Shown here: positions 58,267-63,556 of the stretch, one piece after another | How the letters are laid out: each line of letters starts with the position of its first letter | Position numbering within the stretch: position 1 is the stretch's first letter | Sequence record: PZ386966.1 | Length of the DNA stretch: 64,000 nt | Direction: 5' to 3' (one strand) | From: a phage | Notes under the pieces: generated by a model | Told to the model about the DNA's origin: nothing | The model's database searches: none | What the model saw: only the letters and a program-made list of their open reading frames with translations | Made by a program: the position numbers and the translations under genes

Positions 58267-58343
58267 CTCTGTTTAGCTCAGCTTGGTAGAGCGTTCCGTT
58301 TGGGGCGGTAAGGCCGGAGGTTCAAGTCCTCCAACAGAGACCA
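58267..58343 (+). tRNA. tRNA, anticodon probably UGG (Pro)
   Basis: 7-bp acceptor stem CTCTGTT/AACAGAG, D-arm AGCTCAGCTTGGTAGAGC, T-arm GGAGGTTCAAGTCCTCC, CCA encoded. Confidence 0.5.
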
Positions 58344-58360
58344 AATTTAAAGGGGTTACT

Positions 58361-58717
58361 ATGAGATTTTTAAAAGAATGTCCAGTTCATGGCTTAACTG
58401 AACATAGCATTCATAAGAATGGTAACGCCGGTAATAGAGTAAATTGTCTAAAATGTTGTGCATTAAGGACAAAACTTAGAGAGAATGCCAATAGAGAGAA
58501 AGCATATAAGCTTTATGGCGATAGTTGCAAAATTTGTGGCTATAATAAATGCAAAAATGCTTTAGAATGGCATCACCTTAACCCAAATGAAAAAGAGAAT
58601 ACACCATCAAAACTTATGGGTGCATCTTGGGAGAAGGTTAAAAAAGAACTTGATAAATGTGTTTTGCTATGTGCTAATTGCCACAGAGAGGTTCATAGTG
58701 GAATTACAATGATTTAA
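58361..58717 (+). CDS. HNH homing endonuclease within tRNA array
   Basis: ORF trimmed to Met after tRNA; ..LEWHHLNP..LLCANCHREVH HNH motifs. Confidence 0.65.
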   Translation: MRFLKECPVHGLTEHSIHKNGNAGNRVNCLKCCALRTKLRENANREKAYKLYGDSCKICGYNKCKNALEWHHLNPNEKENTPSKLMGASWEKVKKELDKCVLLCANCHREVHSGITMI

Positions 58718-58718
58718 T

Positions 58719-58793
58719 GTCGTAGAAGGCAAATGGTTAGCCACCTGACCTTCAATCAGTTGCTCGCAGGTTCGAATCCTGTCTACGACACCA
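58719..58793 (+). tRNA. tRNA, anticodon uncertain (possibly UUC, Glu)
   Basis: Acceptor GTCGTAG/CTACGAC, T-arm GCAGGTTCGAATCCTGT, CCA; anticodon stem imperfect. Confidence 0.45.
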
Positions 58794-58800
58794 GTTTTGA

Positions 58801-58874
58801 CAGAAGACCAATTACAGCAAACTTAATCTTATTCATCTGAAGGTAAATCGGACAAAGAAGAGATTTGGTCTGGT
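58801..58874 (+). repeat. inter-tRNA element R1 (CAGAAGACCAATTACAGCAA ... TTGGTCTGG)
   Basis: Arms AGACCAA/TTGGTCT complementary; see R2-R4. Confidence 0.6.
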
Positions 58875-58884
58875 CATTAAGAAT

Positions 58885-58961
58885 TGCGGGTATAGAGAAA
58901 GGGCGTCTCACATGTCTCATTAGCATGGTATCGGCAGGTTCGACTCCTGCACCCGCCTCCA
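58885..58961 (+). tRNA. tRNA, anticodon CAU (Met or Ile2-type), 1:72 mismatch
   Basis: Acceptor, T-arm GCAGGTTCGACTCCTGC, anticodon loop CTCATTA, CCA. Confidence 0.45.
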
Positions 58962-58967
58962 AATTTA

Positions 58968-59032
58968 CAGAAGACCGTTTACAGCAATATTTATTAAATT
59001 TTTAGCGGAAAAATTGAAAGATACGGTCTGGT
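58968..59032 (+). repeat. inter-tRNA element R2 (CAGAAGACCGTTTACAGCAA ... ACGGTCTGG)
   Basis: Arms AGACCGT/ACGGTCT; covaries relative to R1. Confidence 0.6.
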
Positions 59033-59044
59033 AATACTAAACAT

Positions 59045-59121
59045 GGTTAGGAAGCACATAAGGTATGTGCGGTCGCCTGTTAAGCGAATGGCACAGGGTT
59101 CGAATCCCTGACTAACCGCCA
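59045..59121 (+). tRNA. tRNA-Asn (GUU)
   Basis: Loop CTGTTAA, D-stem GCAC/GTGC, T-arm CAGGGTTCGAATCCCTG, CCA. Confidence 0.6.
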
Positions 59122-59190
59122 AATTTAGGAGAGAAGCGATTGCTCACCGATTTGTAAGGTGCAAGTCCTTAGCCTGAATAGAAATTAAAT

Positions 59191-59278
59191 GTGTCGTTAT
59201 CCCGTAGATGGTAGCGGTGGGGACTGTAAATCCCTTGTCATTGAGACTCGGTAGGTTCGACTCCTACACGGCACACCA
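59191..59278 (+). tRNA. tRNA-Tyr (GUA), long variable arm
   Basis: Loop CTGTAAA, acceptor GTGTCGT/ACGGCAC, T-arm GTAGGTTCGACTCCTAC. Confidence 0.6.
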
Positions 59279-59284
59279 AATAAA

Positions 59285-59362
59285 GGTTATGTAGTTTAAT
59301 CTGGTTAAAATACTCCCCTGTCACGGGAGATGATGAGGGTTCGAATCCCTTCGTAACCGCCA
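59285..59362 (+). tRNA. tRNA-Asp (GUC)
   Basis: Stem CTCCC/GGGAG with loop CTGTCAC; T-arm GAGGGTTCGAATCCCTTC. Confidence 0.6.
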
Positions 59363-59449
59363 AATTATAATAAGTATTTCAAAATGATGTTTTGAGAGGG
59401 CTATTTAGCCCCTCCCTTAAAGAGTTCTTACGAGTATTCTTTAAAGGAG

Positions 59450-59525
59450 CAGAAGACCAATTACAGCAAGTACGTATGATATTTTCAAGCCAATTTAATT
59501 TTGAAAAATTTAAAACTTGGTCTGG
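59450..59525 (+). repeat. inter-tRNA element R3 (CAGAAGACCAATTACAGCAA ... TTGGTCTGG)
   Basis: Same arms as R1. Confidence 0.6.
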
Positions 59526-61620: not shown

Positions 61621-61638
61621 ATTTAAAGAGGCTATTTA

Positions 61639-62196
61639 ATGAGATATTTGAAGTACGCTTCATGGATTTTCTTAGCTTTACTAGACCCAATTGCAGCAAT
61701 CCTAGCAGTTATCTTAGCACCTTTCGTAGTTCCATTCTACAGTGAGAAGAAAGGACACTTACCTTTTGGATTCAGATGGATGGAGACATATGATAACCCA
61801 ATTGATGGTGATGAAGGACACGTTAAAAGATGGGCTAATATTAGAAAGATTGGTAAGCTCGGTGTCTATTTGCAGAGAGTTGGATGGCTCTGGAGAAACA
61901 AAGCTTATAACTTCTCTTACCATGTGTTAGGAAGAGATGTAAAAGATGTTACTAAGTGGAAAGGTAATATCAATGTAAGTTCTAACCCTGAAGATAATCA
62001 GACTGGTTATCTCCTAATGTGGAACAGTAATGCTTGGGGATTATTCGCTTTTATCCCATCAATTAAAGTCTTTGGTAAACAGTTTTACTGGAGAATTTAT
62101 ATTGGATGGAAACTAAAAAGTGTTGTCCCAGAAGAAAGAGCATTCTCAAGGGAAAGAGTTATGTTGGCATTCTTTATTCATCCACTGAGAAAGTAA
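61639..62196 (+). CDS. membrane protein embedded in tRNA array
   Basis: N-terminal hydrophobic segment WIFLALLDPIAAILAVILAPFVVPF; AAAGAGG RBS. Confidence 0.5.
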   Translation: MRYLKYASWIFLALLDPIAAILAVILAPFVVPFYSEKKGHLPFGFRWMETYDNPIDGDEGHVKRWANIRKIGKLGVYLQRVGWLWRNKAYNFSYHVLGRDVKDVTKWKGNINVSSNPEDNQTGYLLMWNSNAWGLFAFIPSIKVFGKQFYWRIYIGWKLKSVVPEERAFSRERVMLAFFIHPLRK

Positions 62197-62204
62197 AGAT
62201 TTAA

Positions 62205-62280
62205 AGGGGATTAGTTTACAAGGTTAAAACCTCGGTCTTTGAAATCGAAGAAGTTGGTTCAATTCCAACATCCCCCGCCA
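62205..62280 (+). tRNA. tRNA-Gln (UUG)
   Basis: Loop CTTTGAA; unpaired 1:72; T-arm GTTGGTTCAATTCCAAC. Confidence 0.5.
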
Positions 62281-62282
62281 AT

Positions 62283-62361
62283 GCTCCATTACTCCAATTG
62301 GCAGAGAGGCCAGACTTAAAATCTGTGTTATGTATCGGTTCGAATCCGATATGGAGTACCA
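62283..62361 (+). tRNA. tRNA with anticodon UAA (Leu-type) but short variable arm
   Basis: Loop CTTAAAA; T-arm ATCGGTTCGAATCCGAT perfect. Confidence 0.4.
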
Positions 62362-62366
62362 ATTTT

Positions 62367-62442
62367 AGCGGTATAGCATAACTGGCAATGCAACAGTCTC
62401 TGAAGCTGTCCTATTAAGGTTCAAATCCTTATGCCGCTGCCA
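62367..62442 (+). tRNA. tRNA-Gln (CUG)
   Basis: D-stem GCAT/ATGC, stem ACAGT/GCTGT, loop CTCTGAA; T-arm TAAGGTTCAAATCCTTA. Confidence 0.5.
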
Positions 62443-62473
62443 CTTCTAAGGATTCTTACGAGAGTCCTTAAAT

Positions 62474-62549
62474 GTGGCCTTATCATAAATGGTAATGACC
62501 CATGCTGTGAACATGGTCTATACGGGTTCGACTCCCGTAGGTCACCCCA
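62474..62549 (+). tRNA. tRNA-His (GUG)
   Basis: Stem CCATG/CATGG with loop CTGTGAA; discriminator C. Confidence 0.6.
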
Positions 62550-62554
62550 ATTTA

Positions 62555-62631
62555 TAGTCCAAGTAGCTTATATGGTTAAAGCGCGTGTCTGAAAAACATG
62601 AGAAGAGGGTTCAAATCCCACTGGACTACCA
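62555..62631 (+). tRNA. tRNA-Phe (GAA)
   Basis: Acceptor TAGTCCA/TGGACTA perfect; loop CTGAAAA; T-loop TTCAAAT. Confidence 0.55.
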
Positions 62632-62647
62632 ATTTCAAAGGTGCTTA

Positions 62648-63382
62648 ATGAAAGAGATGACAGAACAAGGTAAGGAGATTTTTAATCTCTTAAAAACCGG
62701 TAAAGGGTTTTCTAACCCACTTATTACTGGTGCAGCAGTTCTCGGTGGAACCGTAGCTGCCTCTACATCACTTGTAAGCTCTATTAGCTCTGTAACAGAC
62801 CCTACAATGAAGGAGAAGCTTGTTGCTGCTGGACTTACAACAGTCCTTCTAAACAGCTTTACAACAAGCCTTACAAGCACTACAGCAACTACTAAGACCT
62901 TAACAGACTATGGTCAAAAGTCTATTGATGAGTTTTCATCACGTATGCAGGTAGCAAAGGGATATTCCAATGTTATGGGTGCAGCAGGAGAACAAGTTGG
63001 TTGTACACCATTTAGTGGTATTATGGGTGTTGCTACAGAGTATGGTCAAAAAGCTGTTGACATGATTAACAGCACACTAGACAGTGTTAACGATGTGTTA
63101 AGCGACTTACAAGACGCTATTGATAAGGGTCTTGATACTGTTTCTGATTTAGCTAATCAGGCTGTTAGTAAGATTAATGAAGGTATTTCAAAGATTACAG
63201 ATTATGCAGATGAAGTTGTGCAGATGATTGAAGAAGAAGCTGCCCTTATTGCAGAGTACCTTAAAACGAATATCAATGGGTTCTTAGCAGGTGTCTTACC
63301 AGACTGGTTTGATGATGCTTGTAAAACTGGTGTAATCGACACTATTGCAACACCAGAAATGAAGAACGCATTGCAGAAATAA
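62648..63382 (+). CDS. hypothetical protein (Ser/Thr/Ala-rich)
   Basis: ORF 62585-63382 trimmed to Met 62648 (AAAGG RBS) because 5' part overlaps tRNA-Phe. Confidence 0.45.
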   Translation: MKEMTEQGKEIFNLLKTGKGFSNPLITGAAVLGGTVAASTSLVSSISSVTDPTMKEKLVAAGLTTVLLNSFTTSLTSTTATTKTLTDYGQKSIDEFSSRMQVAKGYSNVMGAAGEQVGCTPFSGIMGVATEYGQKAVDMINSTLDSVNDVLSDLQDAIDKGLDTVSDLANQAVSKINEGISKITDYADEVVQMIEEEAALIAEYLKTNINGFLAGVLPDWFDDACKTGVIDTIATPEMKNALQK

Positions 63383-63383
63383 T

Positions 63384-63476
63384 GGAAGATTAACCCTAAA
63401 AGGTAAGGGAGCAGTTTGCTAAACTGCCAGTAGCTGAGAAATCGGTGTACCAGTTCAAGTCTGGTATCTTCCTCCA
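63384..63476 (+). tRNA. tRNA-Ser (GCU), long variable arm
   Basis: Acceptor GGAAGAT/ATCTTCC perfect; stem GCAGT/ACTGC with loop TTGCTAA. Confidence 0.6.
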
Positions 63477-63480
63477 ATTT

Positions 63481-63556
63481 GAATCCGTGACAGAAATGGA
63501 TATGTGCCTGTCTGCAAAACAGGTTTATAAGGGTTCAAGTCCCTTCGGATTCTCCA
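63481..63556 (+). tRNA. tRNA-Cys (GCA)
   Basis: Acceptor GAATCCG/CGGATTC perfect; stem CCTGT/ACAGG with loop CTGCAAA. Confidence 0.65.

What the first reader, a model, noticed from the sequence alone, without database searches (positions are those of the whole stretch)
58267..63556. About 26 tRNA genes in a 5.3-kb array interrupted by an HNH endonuclease, a membrane protein and structured spacers
Hand-folding identifies roughly 26 cloverleafs with encoded CCA ends covering most amino acids, including two Lys, two Gln, two Ser and two CAU-anticodon genes. This large complement implies the phage supplements host decoding for its AT-rich codon usage. Anticodons were assigned by eye and several are uncertain.
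Basis: seen in the sequence. Interest (0 to 1): 0.5.

Follow-up and report, generated by a model that had tools for sequence, protein, structure and literature searches.

The report
Phage tRNA array hiding Y RNAs
This is the already known transfer-RNA gene cluster of a Felix O1-type phage, but its "structured spacers" hold unannotated small RNAs that look like the partners of the Ro60-like RNA-binding protein encoded just upstream, plus an odd 26th tRNA that completes the set of 20 amino acids.

Summary
ARAGORN finds 24 tRNAs, all on the + strand at 58267-63556. Rfam adds tRNA-Glu (58719-58793). Covariation supports a non-canonical tRNA-Trp-like gene (60520-60602). That makes 26 genes covering 20 amino acids.

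The window is a Felixounavirus (about 96% identical to phage nataliec), so the array itself is already known. The codon-usage reading is only partly supported. Codons cognate to the phage tRNAs are enriched in phage genes (p=0.019). However, the set is a near-complete minimal decoding set that lacks any CGN reader.

The new result concerns the spacers. Four paralogous modules (M1-M4, 58797-59676) close with a conserved bulged helix followed by an ACAGCAA motif. M4 also carries a circularly permuted tRNA-like domain (T arm, 7-bp acceptor-like hairpin, D arm), as in YrlA-type Y RNAs.

The gene directly upstream (56686-58101) folds like Ro60. A covariance model of M4 finds similar elements beside Ro-like genes in Klebsiella, Mycobacterium and Bacillus phages. 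Motif-bearing modules also sit beside those of Listeria and Campylobacter phages. Ounavirinae that lack the gene at this position lack the modules.

Binding to the Ro-like protein is inferred, not shown. A tmRNA-like tag template (60138-60182) remains unexplained.

The parts
56686..58101 (+). Ro60-like RNA-binding protein gene (471 aa; DUF2828 + DUF7788 + weak vWA), directly upstream of the array
   Evidence: Pfam and PHROG 850 'RNA-binding protein'. AlphaFold model pLDDT 82.9. The top 11 Foldseek PDB hits are all Ro60/TROVE over the full length. The MIDAS-type D279/S281/S283 residues are invariant. Homologous to mycobacteriophage 'Ro-like RNA binding protein'. The Bas63 ortholog gp130 is reported as Ro60-like and as a counter to the Ppl defence (PMC11482910).
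58120..58240 (+). Two tandem sigma-70-like promoters (TTGACA-N17-TAATAT, TTGACA-N18-TAAAGT) ahead of tRNA-Pro
   Evidence: Consensus scan. Consensus matches only; not shown to function.
58267..58343 (+). tRNA-Pro (UGG)
   Evidence: ARAGORN; Rfam 57.7 bits.
58361..58717 (+). Free-standing HNH endonuclease ORF (118 aa), a sporadic insertion between tRNA-Pro and tRNA-Glu
   Evidence: Pfam HNH and PHROG 2255. Present at this site only in nataliec, Meda and DE7 among related records. Relatives have Pro-[7 nt]-Glu.
58719..58793 (+). tRNA-Glu (UUC), minority allele 'B' with anticodon loop CCUUCAA (C at position 33)
   Evidence: Rfam 55.4 bits. ARAGORN finds it only at -ps90. The same allele occurs without the HNH gene in roughly 50 other records, including Erwinia phages.
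58797..58879 (+). M1: Y-RNA-like module filling the Glu-Met spacer (outer stem UGAC/GUCA, AGA bulge, AGACCAA/UUGGUCU, UUACAGCAA)
   Evidence: Model R1 42.3 bits. Closing-helix covariation.
58885..58961 (+). tRNA with CAU anticodon (Met or Ile2; loop CUCAUUA, U1-C72 mismatch)
   Evidence: ARAGORN only. No RF00005 hit. Loop and ends read.
58964..59037 (+). M2: Y-RNA-like module filling the Met-Asn spacer
   Evidence: R1 50.9 bits. A4 covariation, e.g. UUAC/GUAA to UUGC/GCAA.
59045..59121 (+). tRNA-Asn (GUU)
59122..59190 (+). Spacer with a roughly 60-nt insertion/deletion polymorphism and a T-arm-like AAGG-UGCAAGU-CCUU
   Evidence: The Asn-Tyr gap is 69 nt in some relatives and 8-10 nt in others. 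Repeat family D9. z -2.4.
59191..59278 (+). tRNA-Tyr (GUA)
   Evidence: ARAGORN; Rfam tRNA-Sec model only, 29.6 bits.
59285..59362 (+). tRNA-Asp (GUC)
59446..59531 (+). M3: Y-RNA-like module (outer stem GAGC/GCUC)
   Evidence: R1 30.3 bits with filters off. A4.
59535..59676 (+). M4: YrlA-like Y RNA. Same closing bulged helix + UUACAGCAA, then a V hairpin, a T arm (GAAGG-UUCGAUU-CCUUC), a 7-bp acceptor-like hairpin, U-G, and a D arm (GUGU-AAUGGUA-GCAC)
   Evidence: Fold. Alignment A3: 98.6% paired, 3 compensatory pairs in the acceptor-like stem. R1 finds counterparts beside Ro-like genes in other phage families. Unannotated in nearly all GenBank records.
59672..59815 (+). Long hairpin (22-bp stem, 95% complementary, 100-nt interior) ending 4 nt before tRNA-Lys; function unknown
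   Evidence: Inverted repeat I3. Conserved in the genus with single-base indels that rule out the overlapping minus-strand ORF.
59820..59895 (+). tRNA-Lys (UUU)
59900..59976 (+). tRNA with CAU anticodon (Met or Ile2)
59978..60053 (+). tRNA-Ile (GAU)
60069..60097 (+). Strong sigma-70-like promoter TTGACA-N17-TATAGT (the published Felix O1 P45)
   Evidence: 11 of 12 matches. PMC3185647.
60104..60300 (+). Conserved structured leader between the promoter and tRNA-Arg. It contains a tmRNA-like resume/tag segment (60138-60182: AAAAUAAAU-GCA AAC GAC AAU GUU UUU CUG GCA GUA GCU UGA UAG = ANDNVFLAVA**), a hairpin at 60196-60218 and a hairpin at 60262-60297
   Evidence: 90-100% identical across three genera; the 60196-60218 hairpin has 3 compensatory pairs. 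Rfam tmRNA 15.2 bits and tmRNA_permuted 29.2 bits, both below the gathering score of 47. Tag conservation. No tRNA-like domain found.
60301..60377 (+). tRNA-Arg (UCU)
   Evidence: Replaced in nataliec and L003 by a D-armless UCU tRNA-like gene.
60378..60519 (+). Conserved spacer of unknown function
   Evidence: 93-99% identical within Felixounavirus (80-96% in Suspvirus; only its 3' 70% aligns in Mooglevirus); unannotated. z -1.7.
60520..60602 (+). Non-canonical tRNA-Trp(CCA)-like gene: 8-bp acceptor stem, 11 unpaired nt (9 of them the conserved AUGUUAAGA), 3-bp D hairpin, 5-bp anticodon stem with a 9-nt loop containing CUCCAAA, 4-bp T stem, G73, encoded CCA
   Evidence: In L009 and L011 the slot instead holds a 71-nt tRNA-Trp plus an HNH ORF.
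60616..60705 (+). tRNA-Ser (UGA), the only gene without an encoded CCA
60706..60961 (+). Structured spacer with conserved hairpins and a long terminal hairpin (60871-60960) abutting tRNA-Leu
   Evidence: z -3.8. Inverted repeat I2. RNAalifold: 56 pairs, 1 compensatory plus several one-sided changes.
60962..61039 (+). tRNA-Leu (UAG)
61047..61122 (+). tRNA-Lys (CUU)
61129..61204 (+). tRNA-Ala (UGC)
61211..61285 (+). tRNA-Gly (UCC)
61293..61369 (+). tRNA-Thr (UGU)
61370..61466 (+). Highly conserved structured spacer (95-99% identical even in Mooglevirus); contains CUGAAGACCGUAACAAA, reminiscent of the module 5' strand
   Evidence: No significant R1 hit.
61467..61541 (+). tRNA-Val (UAC)
61543..61620 (+). 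tRNA-Leu (CAA)
61639..62196 (+).
   Evidence: Pfam PF24027 E 1.4e-62. KD19 2.47. Homologs lie beside tRNA genes in many large phages.
62205..62280 (+). tRNA-Gln (UUG)
62283..62361 (+). tRNA-Leu (UAA)
62367..62442 (+). tRNA-Gln (CUG)
62446..62473 (+). Short hairpin abutting tRNA-His, of the same type as 59416-59447 and 60262-60297
   Evidence: z -3.5.
62474..62549 (+). tRNA-His (GUG)
62556..62631 (+). tRNA-Phe (GAA)
62648..63382 (+). DUF7217 protein (244 aa), function unknown
   Evidence: Pfam PF23854 E 7.8e-88; PHROG 2114.
63384..63476 (+). tRNA-Ser (GCU)
63481..63556 (+). tRNA-Cys (GCA)
63594..63653 (+). Long G+C-closed hairpin followed by T6; a likely terminator of the array
   Evidence: z -7.0 for 63557-63700; sequence read. 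A second terminator-like site lies at 63719-63736.

Best explanation
The region is the tRNA operon of a Felixounavirus, and it carries more than tRNAs.

Shown:
- There are 25 canonical tRNA genes plus one non-canonical tRNA-Trp-like gene. All are on one strand, behind sigma-70-type promoter consensus sequences at 58120, 58211 and 60069, and ahead of terminator-like hairpins after 63594.
- The array is mosaic among relatives. tRNA alleles, HNH endonuclease ORFs and individual tRNAs come and go.
- Four paralogous spacer modules (M1-M4) are conserved structured RNAs. They share a bulged closing helix and an ACAGCAA motif.
- M4 has a circularly permuted tRNA-like domain of the YrlA type.
- The adjacent upstream gene encodes a protein predicted to have a Ro60 fold.
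- Within the loci examined, the modules occur only where the Ro-like gene is present.

Inferred:
- Host RNA polymerase makes polycistronic precursors.
- RNase P and the 3'-end nucleases that release the tRNAs also release M1 and M2, which exactly fill the Glu-Met and Met-Asn spacers, and release M3 and M4.
- The tRNAs give the phage a nearly self-sufficient decoding set, biased towards its A/U-ending codons. This keeps translation going when host tRNAs are limiting, degraded or cleaved.
- M1-M4 bind the Ro60-like protein through the bulged helix and the ACAGCAA motif to form Ro-Y-RNA particles. By analogy with bacterial Rsr/Y RNA/PNPase and with Thermus phage phiLo Ro60, these would tether or gate a host exoribonuclease. 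They would underlie the anti-defence activity (against Ppl) reported for the Bas63 ortholog.
- The HNH ORF is a selfish homing-type insertion and is not part of the function.
For: tRNAs.

Identity of the phage and prior knowledge of the array.

Mosaicism.

Trp-like gene: 99.5% of pairs form and 8 are compensatory, against 0 in slid controls. A1-U72, G73 and the CUCCAAA loop match what is known of E. coli tRNA-Trp identity (established knowledge). A published analysis of Mooglevirus Sf14 counts 26 tRNAs covering only 19 amino acids.

Ro60 fold. Homology to mycobacteriophage Ro-like proteins. Independent report for Bas63 gp130.

Modules: the closing helix is 100% paired in 165 cells, with 5 of 11 pairs compensatory. 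The M4 acceptor-like stem has 3 compensatory pairs, and its T and D arms are invariant, as described for YrlA (PMC4201824).

Model R1 hits right beside Ro-like genes: Klebsiella phage KP13-26, 55.8 and 38 bits; Mycobacterium phage Kingsolomon, 27.5 bits; Bacillus phage FADO, 41.9, 34.4 and 30.8 bits.

Stem-ACAGCAA modules also lie beside the gene in Listeria LMTA-94 and Campylobacter CP81. CAGCAA is enriched next to the gene, with p from 1e-4 to 9e-4 in four lineages.

Co-occurrence inside Ounavirinae: three genera have both the gene and the modules, and three lineages have neither at this locus.

The phiLo Ro60 binds phage-encoded Y-like RNAs and host PNPase (PMC12135203).

Codon test.
Against: - No expression, processing or binding data exist for M1-M4 or for the Trp-like gene.
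- The motif published for YrlA and the phiLo Yrl RNAs (GNCGAAN0-1G / CGAA) is absent from the modules.
- Rfam has no matching Y RNA family.
- The T and D arms and most of the closing helix never vary among orthologs, so covariation rests on the acceptor-like stem and on paralog comparison.
- T4-like Vibrio and Aeromonas phages that have the protein show no module within 2.5 kb.
- Absence of the Ro-like gene in phiEa21-4, Wc4-1 and L024 was checked only at the syntenic locus, not genome-wide.
- Bas63 tRNAs are mostly non-essential in laboratory strains.
- The set lacks a CGN reader, so self-sufficiency is incomplete in this genome.
- The Trp-like gene has a 9-nt anticodon loop and an aberrant D region, so it may not be chargeable or decodable.
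Confidence: 0.7

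Rival explanations
1. One reading: the array exists mainly to supplement host decoding of the phage's AT-rich codons, and the spacers are incidental.
For: Phage GC3 is 0.34 against 0.53 in the host sample. Codons cognate to the phage tRNAs are enriched in phage ORFs (mean log2 +0.44 versus -0.30, p=0.019). Twelve of 25 cognate codons end in A. The Felix O1 genome paper argued the same for 7 tRNAs.
Against: The set covers all 20 amino acids, including eight NNC-cognate tRNAs for codons the phage uses less than the host does. The phage's commonest Arg codon (CGU) has no phage tRNA, and its commonest Gly codon (GGU) is not cognate to the single tRNA-Gly(UCC). The Sf14 study finds the best adaptation of late genes to the phage-only pool and favours host-pool replacement. 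This view does not explain the conserved spacer RNAs.
Confidence: 0.35
2. The tRNAs replace a host tRNA pool that is lost during infection, either because the host genome is degraded or because host anticodon nucleases and tRNA-targeting defence systems cleave host tRNAs. On this view the phage copies are spare or resistant versions.
For: The minimal set is near-complete. The Sf14 analysis supports an 'all-destructive' infection. The Bas63 authors regard the tRNAs as a conditionally essential toolbox. There are allelic variants in anticodon loops: Trp-like CUCCAAA versus UUCCAAC and Glu allele B with C33. Alternative alleles exist for the Arg-UCU, Trp and Glu slots.
Against: The Sf14 study judged that anticodon-loop differences do not indicate nuclease escape. 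There is no CGN reader in this genome. There is no direct evidence of host tRNA loss in Felixounavirus infection.
Confidence: 0.45
3. The spacer modules are not Y RNAs. They are RNA-processing or termination hairpins, decayed tRNA remnants, or recombination and homing-endonuclease target repeats.
For: They lie exactly between tRNAs. Several other hairpins abut tRNA 5' ends (59672-59815, 60262-60297, 60871-60960, 62446-62473). M4 contains tRNA-derived arms and took part in a T-arm recombination deletion in L019. The canonical CGAA motif is missing.
Against: A sequence-invariant bulge and an invariant single-stranded ACAGCAA motif, flanked by covarying pairs, are typical of a protein-binding site. 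The same architecture recurs beside Ro-like genes in phages of Proteobacteria, Firmicutes and Actinobacteria that otherwise share no DNA similarity. The modules are absent where the gene is absent. A permuted T / acceptor-like / D order with a covarying 7-bp stem is not what tRNA decay produces.
Confidence: 0.15
4. The large spacers encode small proteins, as annotated on the minus strand in some GenBank records (for example bas63_0137 and bas63_0138).
For: ORFs of 40-85 codons exist, and some records annotate them.
Against: Single-base indels among near-identical relatives fall inside these ORFs. Conservation follows RNA pairs, not reading frames.
Confidence: 0.03

Closest known systems
tRNA gene cluster of Salmonella phage Felix O1 and other Felixounavirus / Mooglevirus phages (Whichard et al. 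2010, PMC3185647; Ross & Doore 2025, PMC12482277)
   Same: Same locus. It is 92-97% identical over 5.4 kb to many deposited genomes, with the same gene order, the same promoter P45, and the same flanking Ro-like, DUF7338 and DUF7217 genes.
   Different: Published counts are 22-26 tRNAs for 19 amino acids. The Trp-like gene and M1-M4 are unannotated in almost all records. This genome has the rare HNH insertion and Glu allele B, and lacks Arg-ACG.
YrlA / YrlB Y RNAs encoded next to Rsr (Ro60) in Salmonella, Mycobacterium and mycobacteriophages (Chen et al. 2014, PMC4201824)
   Same: M4 has the V, T, acceptor-like and D order, closed by a stem formed from the 5' and 3' ends. Its T and D arms are invariant and its acceptor-like stem is variable. 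It is encoded beside a Ro60 ortholog and accompanied by shorter modules without the tRNA-like domain (compare YrlB). A model of M4 detects the element beside a mycobacteriophage Ro gene.
   Different: The GNCGAAN0-1G motif is absent. Instead there is a bulged helix (AGA/G) with AGACC/GGUCU and a single-stranded ACAGCAA. There are four copies interleaved with bona fide tRNAs. The protein is of the DUF2828 type, which Pfam does not recognise as TROVE.
Thermus phage phiLo Ro60 with Yrl1/Yrl2 (PMC12135203; PDB 9KOP, 9L5Y)
   Same: A phage Ro60 with several phage-encoded Y-like RNAs next to the gene. These structures are the best Foldseek matches of the window protein. The proposed role is hijacking host PNPase against host defence.
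   Different: About 15% sequence identity. The phiLo RNAs carry the CGAA motif and are not embedded in a tRNA array.
Phage T4 and T5 tRNA regions (from memory: T4 stable RNAs C and D and the SegB homing endonuclease; T5 HNH endonucleases F-TflI, II and IV in its tRNA region)
   Same: A polycistronic tRNA cluster that also encodes small stable non-tRNA RNAs and free-standing homing endonucleases, with presence/absence polymorphism among relatives.
   Different: No sequence relationship was tested here. No Ro60 gene is known at those loci. This comparison rests on recollection only.
Non-canonical tRNAs with an 8/4 acceptor/T-stem geometry (from memory: allo-tRNAs, Mukai et al. 2017) and tRNA-Sec
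   Same: The Trp-like gene has an 8-bp acceptor stem plus a 4-bp T stem, 12 stacked pairs in all. Its best Rfam match is the tRNA-Sec model.
   Different: The variable loop is short, there is a CCA anticodon in a 9-nt loop, and 11 unpaired nt (9 of them a conserved sequence) precede a 3-bp D hairpin. It does not match any described class known to me.
Dictyostelium Class I RNAs (Rfam RF01414; Kjellin et al. 2021, PMC7919456)
   Same: A roughly 60-nt RNA in which a short covarying stem joins the 5' and 3' ends. An unstructured conserved motif (CCUUACAGCAA) sits immediately after the 5' strand. The 3' end is CUG(U) and the middle is variable. RF01414 is the best non-tRNA Rfam hit for M1, M2 and M4 and for two Listeria phage modules (14.7-23.1 bits).
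   Different: All scores are below the gathering score (41.5), with E-values of 0.05-2.8. Class I RNAs are reported to be restricted to dictyostelids and to bind an RRM protein. No link to Ro60 or DUF2828 is known. This may be convergence or chance.

Membership tests
Canonical bacterial-type tRNA genes | Cloverleaf recognised by dedicated tools, with a 7-nt anticodon loop and a T loop | tested here: met
   24 by ARAGORN. 22 by Rfam RF00005 above its gathering score, including the Glu gene that ARAGORN missed. 25 distinct genes in all.
Canonical bacterial-type tRNA genes | The same criteria applied to the 26th element, 60520-60602 | tested here: not met
   Not called by ARAGORN. Only 23 bits to the tRNA-Sec model. 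It has an 8/4 stem geometry, a 9-nt anticodon loop and an aberrant D region. It is nevertheless a conserved cloverleaf-like RNA with strong covariation.
Felixounavirus tRNA cluster | Nucleotide identity and synteny with deposited Felixounavirus genomes | tested here: met
   95.9% identity over 100% of the query to phage nataliec. 214 records cover at least 80% of it. Same gene order.
Ro60 / TROVE proteins (for the gene at 56686-58101) | HEAT-repeat ring followed by a vWA domain with a MIDAS motif | tested here: met
   Full-length Foldseek matches to 9KOP, 9L5Y, 2NVO, 1YVP and 2I91 (E 8e-8 to 1e-5, TM about 0.5), based on a pLDDT 82.9 model. D279/S281/S283/T349/D381 are invariant.
Ro60 / TROVE proteins (for the gene at 56686-58101) | Match to the Pfam TROVE profile or sequence similarity to solved Ro60 proteins | tested here: not met
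   Pfam reports DUF2828, DUF7788 and weak VWA_2 only. phmmer against PDB sequences finds nothing. The relationship is visible by fold, and through mycobacteriophage 'Ro-like' homologs.
YrlA-type Y RNA (for M4) | Encoded adjacent to a Ro60 ortholog | tested here: met
   M4 starts 1.4 kb downstream of the gene on the same strand. Counterparts lie beside Ro-like genes in other phages.
YrlA-type Y RNA (for M4) | tRNA-like domain in the order V, T arm, acceptor-like stem-loop, D arm, closed by a stem between the 5' and 3' ends | tested here: met
   The acceptor-like stem has 3 compensatory pairs. The T and D arms are invariant and have tRNA-like loops.
YrlA-type Y RNA (for M4) | GNCGAAN0-1G (CGAA) motif near the 5' end | tested here: not met
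   Absent from M1-M4. The conserved elements are AGA-AGACC / GGUCU-G and ACAGCAA. So M4 works like, and is probably related to, YrlA, but it is a variant.
YrlA-type Y RNA (for M4) | Bound by the Ro60 ortholog; carries tRNA-type modifications | not testable with these tools
   Needs RIP, EMSA or RNA mass spectrometry.
Free-standing HNH homing endonuclease | HNH catalytic motif and sporadic presence at one site among otherwise collinear relatives | tested here: met
   Pfam and PHROG. Present in 3 other records only. Other HNH ORFs occupy other junctions of the array in relatives.
Free-standing HNH homing endonuclease | Site-specific cleavage of the HNH-less allele and preferential inheritance | not testable with these tools
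   The HNH-bearing genomes all carry Glu allele B, but allele B also occurs without the HNH gene. The target therefore cannot be deduced.
tmRNA (for 60104-60300) | Resume codon preceded by an A-rich segment, followed by a short tag ORF ending in hydrophobic residues and stop codon(s) | tested here: inconclusive
   AAAAUAAAU-GCAAACGAC... encodes ANDNVFLAVA followed by two stops, with no in-frame start codon. It is conserved, with a synonymous change and a stop-to-stop change. However, Rfam scores are below threshold, and pairwise similarity to E. coli ssrA is not above shuffles.
tmRNA (for 60104-60300) | tRNA-like domain (acceptor stem with G3-U70, T arm, CCA end) | tested here: not met
   ARAGORN finds no tmRNA at default settings. 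At -ps80 it borrows the arms of tRNA-Ile and tRNA-Arg. The element is therefore not filed as a tmRNA.

The most novel reading that the evidence does not exclude
M1-M4 are genuine Y RNAs of a distinct, widespread phage clade of Ro60 proteins (the DUF2828 type). They would be recognised through a new element, a bulged terminal helix followed by single-stranded ACAGCAA and a 3' CUG. This element is conserved beside the gene in phages of Proteobacteria, Firmicutes and Actinobacteria. The resulting Ro-Y-RNA particle, made from the same precursor as the tRNAs, would be what counteracts host defence (Ppl). An extension with lower probability: Dictyostelium Class I RNAs, which share this architecture and motif, belong to the same RNA class. 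A second extension: the conserved tmRNA-like tag template in the 60104-60300 leader interferes with or exploits trans-translation.
Probability: 0.4. Interest if true: 0.75.

Novelty: new member of a known kind. Interest (0 to 1): 0.55.

Why it matters
The tRNA array itself is textbook for Felix O1-like phages. Three points would matter to specialists.

1. A preprint on the close relative Bas63 showed that the Ro60-like protein upstream of the array counters an anti-phage system. Its authors guessed that some annotated tRNAs might be its Y RNAs. This analysis points instead to specific unannotated spacer elements, with coordinates, a structure and a candidate recognition motif. The RNP and its mechanism thereby become directly testable.

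2. The same stem-ACAGCAA signature beside Ro-like genes in at least five other phage lineages suggests a general rule for finding partner RNAs. The protein family occurs in more than 700 sequenced phages.

3. The covariation-supported tRNA-Trp-like gene, along with other tRNA-like genes that standard tools miss in relatives, changes the inventory from 19 to 20 amino acids. That matters for arguments that these phages can translate independently of the host tRNA pool.

Tried and rejected
- A 14-mer scan of IMG/VR for the Trp-like linker (GGACGATGTTAAGA) returned almost only chance matches in unrelated contigs.
- Sequence search of the Ro-like protein against PDB chains and NCBIfam gave nothing. 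Only fold comparison worked.
- Rfam has no Y RNA or YrlA match for the spacers.
- I first read the HNH ORF plus the divergent tRNA-Glu as one mobile cassette. I rejected this because the same Glu allele occurs in roughly 50 records without the HNH gene.
- The tmRNA reading of the 60104-60300 leader was pursued with Rfam alignments, relaxed ARAGORN and an alignment to E. coli ssrA. It is not accepted: there is no tRNA-like domain, the scores are sub-threshold, and the pairwise score lies within shuffles.
- Protein-coding readings of the spacers are rejected because of frame-breaking indels.
- The long hairpins and spacers at 59672-59815, 60378-60519, 60706-60961 and 61370-61466 could not be assigned a function. 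The sequences available are too similar for decisive covariation.
- A fuzzy-regex search timed out.
- The afdb50 fold library was unavailable, so I could not test whether dictyostelids or plants have close structural relatives of the protein.
- The identity of the two CAU tRNAs (elongator Met, initiator-like, or lysidine-dependent Ile2) could not be resolved from sequence.

Full report
**Observation**

ARAGORN on the whole window finds 24 tRNA genes. All are on the + strand between 58267 and 63556, and none lies elsewhere in the 64 kb. An Rfam scan of 56000-64000 gives 22 RF00005 matches above the gathering score. Of these, 21 coincide with ARAGORN genes. One is additional, at 58719-58790 (55.4 bits). 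ARAGORN recognises that gene as tRNA-Glu(UUC) only at a relaxed threshold. It has a 3-bp D stem, a C-U mismatch in the anticodon stem, and the loop CCUUCAA.

Three ARAGORN genes are not listed under RF00005: the first CAU gene, Tyr and Ser-UGA. Tyr and Ser-UGA match only the tRNA-Sec model, below its threshold. Every gene ends in an encoded CCA except Ser-UGA, which ends GCC|T.

There are also three Leu genes.

The interrupting ORFs are as follows.
- An HNH endonuclease at 58361-58717.
- A DUF7338 protein at 61639-62196, with a strongly hydrophobic N-terminus.
- A DUF7217 protein at 62648-63382.

The large spacers fold markedly better than dinucleotide shuffles, with z between -3.2 and -4.6.

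**What the locus is**

The 5.4-kb region is 92-97% identical to hundreds of deposited Felixounavirus genomes. The best match is Escherichia phage nataliec, at 95.9% identity over 100% of the query. Their annotations show the same tRNA order and the same flanking genes. The Felix O1 genome paper already described 22 tRNAs in this cluster. It also described a TTGACA-N17-TATAGT promoter that corresponds to 60069-60097, and it proposed the codon-compensation idea. So the array as such is known.

Comparing 23 related loci shows a mosaic. Arg-UCU, Arg-ACG, Tyr, Asp and Trp genes are present or absent, and inserts of 430-950 nt occur at different junctions.

The HNH ORF at the Pro|Glu junction is shared only with nataliec, Meda and DE7. 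The divergent tRNA-Glu allele next to it also occurs without the HNH gene in roughly 50 records, many from Erwinia phages. The HNH gene therefore looks like a sporadic homing-type insertion rather than a fixed cassette.

**The 26th gene**

The element at 60520-60602 is 97-100% conserved in 20 of 23 Felixounavirus loci. It is unannotated in nearly all GenBank records. Diverged copies in Mooglevirus, Suspvirus and Pectobacterium phage Wc4-1 allow a covariation test.

The tested structure has these parts:
- an 8-bp acceptor stem;
- 11 unpaired nt, 9 of which form the conserved sequence AUGUUAAGA;
- a 3-bp D hairpin;
- a 5-bp anticodon stem with a 9-nt loop containing CUCCAAA;
- a 4-bp T stem;
- G73 and an encoded CCA.

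With this structure, 99.5% of cells pair and 8 of 20 pairs show compensatory change. None does when partners are slid by 1-3 columns.

A1-U72, G73 and the CCA anticodon are the known E. coli tRNA-Trp identity elements (established knowledge). In two relatives the same slot holds a different, ARAGORN-detectable 71-nt tRNA-Trp followed by an HNH ORF. I therefore read the element as a non-canonical tRNA-Trp. Chargeability is not shown.

A recent analysis of Mooglevirus Sf14 counted 26 tRNAs for 19 amino acids, with no Trp. The inventory for these phages is therefore probably 20.

**Codon usage**

I compared 62 long ORFs of the window with 48 annotated E. coli K-12 genes. Codons that are Watson-Crick cognate to the phage tRNAs are relatively enriched in the phage. 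Mean log2 ratio is +0.44 versus -0.30 (Mann-Whitney p=0.019), and GC3 is 0.34 versus 0.53.

Other features point elsewhere. The set is essentially one tRNA per codon box. It includes G34 tRNAs whose cognate NNC codons the phage uses less than the host does. It has no reader for CGN, although CGU is the phage's most frequent Arg codon. Relatives carry Arg-ACG.

Published work on relatives favours replacement of the host pool late in infection. It also finds the tRNAs mostly dispensable in laboratory strains.

**The neighbouring gene**

The ORF at 56686-58101 ends 166 nt before tRNA-Pro. It matches DUF2828, DUF7788 and, weakly, a vWA domain. PHROG 850 calls it an "RNA-binding protein". Sequence searches against PDB chains find nothing.

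An AlphaFold model built from 32 homologs has pLDDT 82.9. Its 11 best Foldseek matches in the PDB are all Ro60/TROVE proteins aligned over the full length. They include the Thermus phage phiLo Ro60, Deinococcus Rsr and Xenopus Ro60. The MIDAS residues are invariant in the family.

By tblastn the family occurs in 710 phage records. These include mycobacteriophages, where it is annotated "Ro-like RNA binding protein".

A 2024 preprint reports independently that the Bas63 ortholog gp130 is structurally Ro60-like and counters the Ppl defence system. Its authors speculate that some of the annotated tRNAs downstream might be Y RNAs.

**The spacers contain Y-RNA-like modules**

Four paralogous elements share one design: M1 58797-58879, M2 58964-59037, M3 59446-59531 and M4 59535-59676. 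From the outside in, the design is:
- an outer 4-bp stem;
- an invariant asymmetric internal loop (AGA on the 5' side, G on the 3' side);
- an inner stem AGACC(NN)/(NN)GGUCU;
- immediately after the 5' strand, a single-stranded (U)(U)ACAGCAA.

Over 15 distinct paralog and ortholog ends, all 165 cells pair. Five of 11 pairs change on both sides, for example UGAC/GUCA, UUAC/GUAA, UUGC/GCAA and GAGC/GCUC.

M1 and M2 fill the Glu-Met and Met-Asn spacers exactly. Ordinary tRNA end-processing would therefore release them (inference).

M4 contains, in order, a V hairpin, a T arm (GAAGG-UUCGAUU-CCUUC), a contiguous 7-bp hairpin, then U-G, and a D arm (GUGU-AAUGGUA-GCAC). This is a circularly permuted tRNA-like domain. 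It matches the order V, T, AS, D that Chen et al. described for YrlA Y RNAs, with nearly invariant T and D arms and a variable acceptor-like stem. In nine orthologs from three genera, 98.6% of cells pair. The acceptor-like stem has three compensatory pairs, for example ACUCGGC/GUCGAGU versus ACCCUUC/GAAGGGU.

**Generality**

I built a covariance model of M4, called R1. In the window it finds only M4, M2, M1 and M3 as full-length hits, at 169, 51, 42 and 30 bits.

In other phages the results are as follows.
- Klebsiella phage KP13-26 (Ro-like protein 47% identical): a run of five modules in the 700-nt gap between the Ro-like gene and the next tRNA. The best score 55.8 bits (E 6e-11) and 38 bits, both with T, acceptor-like and D arms.
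- Mycobacterium phage Kingsolomon: 27.5 bits, right after its Ro-like gene (GGACCCC-CACAGCAA ... GGGGUCC), followed by a short module.
- Bacillus phage FADO: several permuted tRNA-like matches upstream of its Ro-like gene, at 41.9, 34.4 and 30.8 bits.
- Listeria phage LMTA-94: three stem-(N)ACAGCAA...stem-CUG modules immediately upstream of the gene.
- Campylobacter phage CP81: two such modules immediately upstream of the gene.
- T4-like Vibrio and Aeromonas phages: none within 2.5 kb.

CAGCAA is enriched next to the gene in four lineages, with binomial p between 1e-4 and 9e-4.

Inside Ounavirinae the pattern is consistent. Felixouna-, Susp- and Mooglevirus have both the gene and all four modules. 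In phiEa21-4, Wc4-1 and contig L024, the DUF5681 gene is followed directly by tRNAs. There is no Ro-like gene at that position, and R1 gives no full-length hit.

According to the phiLo paper, earlier reports of phage Y RNAs concern mycobacteriophages, CcrColossus and Bacillus phage G. That paper also shows a phage Ro60 binding phage Y-like RNAs and host PNPase. I found no report of these elements in Felix O1-like phages.

**Limits of the Y-RNA claim**

The published CGAA-type motif is absent from the modules. Rfam has no matching family. No binding or expression data exist. The claim that M1-M4 are partners of the Ro-like protein rests on architecture, adjacency and co-occurrence.

**Other spacer content**

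The leader from the 60069 promoter to tRNA-Arg (60104-60300) is 90-100% identical across three genera. It has a hairpin at 60196-60218 with three compensatory pairs.

The leader also contains AAAAUAAAU-GCA AAC GAC AAU GUU UUU CUG GCA GUA GCU UGA UAG. This resembles a tmRNA resume codon and tag (ANDNVFLAVA plus two stops). It has no in-frame start codon. The changes seen in relatives are one synonymous change, one stop-to-stop change and one Val-to-Ala change.

The Rfam tmRNA scores are sub-threshold, at 15.2 and 29.2 bits against a gathering score of 47. ARAGORN proposes a tmRNA only at -ps80, and only by borrowing arms from neighbouring tRNAs. Similarity to E. coli ssrA is within shuffles. 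I do not file it as a tmRNA. It remains unexplained.

Long hairpins abut the 5' ends of tRNA sub-clusters at 59672-59815, 60262-60297, 60871-60960 and 62446-62473. The spacer at 61370-61466 is 95-99% conserved even in Mooglevirus. Their roles are unknown; processing sites are a reasonable guess. Minus-strand ORFs annotated in some records are contradicted by frame-breaking indels.

**Verdict**

The array is already known. The added value is threefold: identification of Y-RNA-like modules, one of them YrlA-like, that probably partner the adjacent Ro60-like anti-defence protein; a covariation-supported non-canonical tRNA-Trp; and an unexplained tmRNA-like tag template.

Noticed in passing
window 60138-60182 (within the leader 60104-60300): A tmRNA-like resume codon and tag template (ANDNVFLAVA followed by two stops). 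It has no in-frame start codon and is conserved in Felixouna-, Susp- and Mooglevirus. No tRNA-like domain accompanies it. Rfam tmRNA scores are below threshold.
   Followed up: partly
window M1, M2, M4; L198 2121-2176 and 2210-2265: The best non-tRNA Rfam match of the modules in two unrelated phages is the Dictyostelium Class I RNA family (14.7-23.1 bits, below the gathering score of 41.5). The two share a terminal stem, the motif (CC)UUACAGCAA right after the 5' strand, and a 3' CUG(U). Class I RNAs are published as unique to dictyostelids.
   Followed up: partly
window 61639-62196; loci L024-L062: The DUF7338 protein inside the array has homologs in 170-180-kb T4-like contigs and other large phage contigs. 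In many of the 24 loci scanned the homolog lies within about 1-2 kb of tRNA genes, which suggests a recurrent tRNA-linked gene of unknown function.
   Followed up: partly
L001 about 3575-3655 and L003 about 3578-3660 (the slot of window tRNA-Arg 60301-60377): In nataliec and other relatives the Arg-UCU slot holds a different tRNA-like gene. It has the loop CUUCUAA, no D arm and a long variable arm, and ARAGORN does not call it. A similar element is in L024 near 7330.
   Followed up: no
L024 about 5660-5750; L025 about 5560-5650; L064 about 6790-6900; L063 about 3340-3435: Relatives contain further orphan T-arm elements that standard tools miss. There are two more Trp(CCA)-like genes with unusual D regions. 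Wc4-1 has a UAU-anticodon (Ile AUA) tRNA-like gene with a long variable arm. Moogle has an extra tRNA-like element.
   Followed up: no
L019 about 2898-2990: One relative has a deletion that fuses the M4 T arm to the T arm of tRNA-Lys(UUU). It removes the rest of M4, the long hairpin and the 5' part of the Lys gene. This looks like recombination between T arms.
   Followed up: partly
L198 5307-6455: In Listeria phage LMTA-94 the Ro-like (DUF2828) gene lies 1.3 kb upstream of an RtcB-type 'tRNA-splicing ligase' gene. This echoes the bacterial rsr-yrlA-rtcB-rtcA operon.
   Followed up: no
L193 3510-3584: Klebsiella phage KP13-26 has a gene annotated tRNA-Pyl, which may mean a CUA (amber-reading) anticodon (not checked here), in the tRNA array around its Ro-like gene.
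   Followed up: no
window 60520-60602 versus L002, L003, L004, L006, L014, L017: The Trp-like gene has two allelic anticodon loops within the genus, C-CUCCAAA-A and C-UUCCAAC-A. They differ at the positions corresponding to 32 and 38.
   Followed up: no
window 59416-59447, 60262-60297, 62446-62473, 60871-60960: A recurrent hairpin type (UUAAAG...CUUACGAG/CUAAGAG...CUUUAA). In three of the four cases it ends 0-5 nt before a tRNA 5' end (60262-60297, 60871-60960, 62446-62473); 59416-59447 instead abuts module M3. It may be a processing signal.
   Followed up: no
window 58885-58961: The first CAU tRNA has a pyrimidine at position 37 (loop CUCAUUA) and a U1-C72 mismatch. It scores poorly in Rfam and, in Felix O1, in tRNAscan-SE (Cove 28.9). 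Its identity (Met, initiator-like or Ile2) is unclear.
   Followed up: partly
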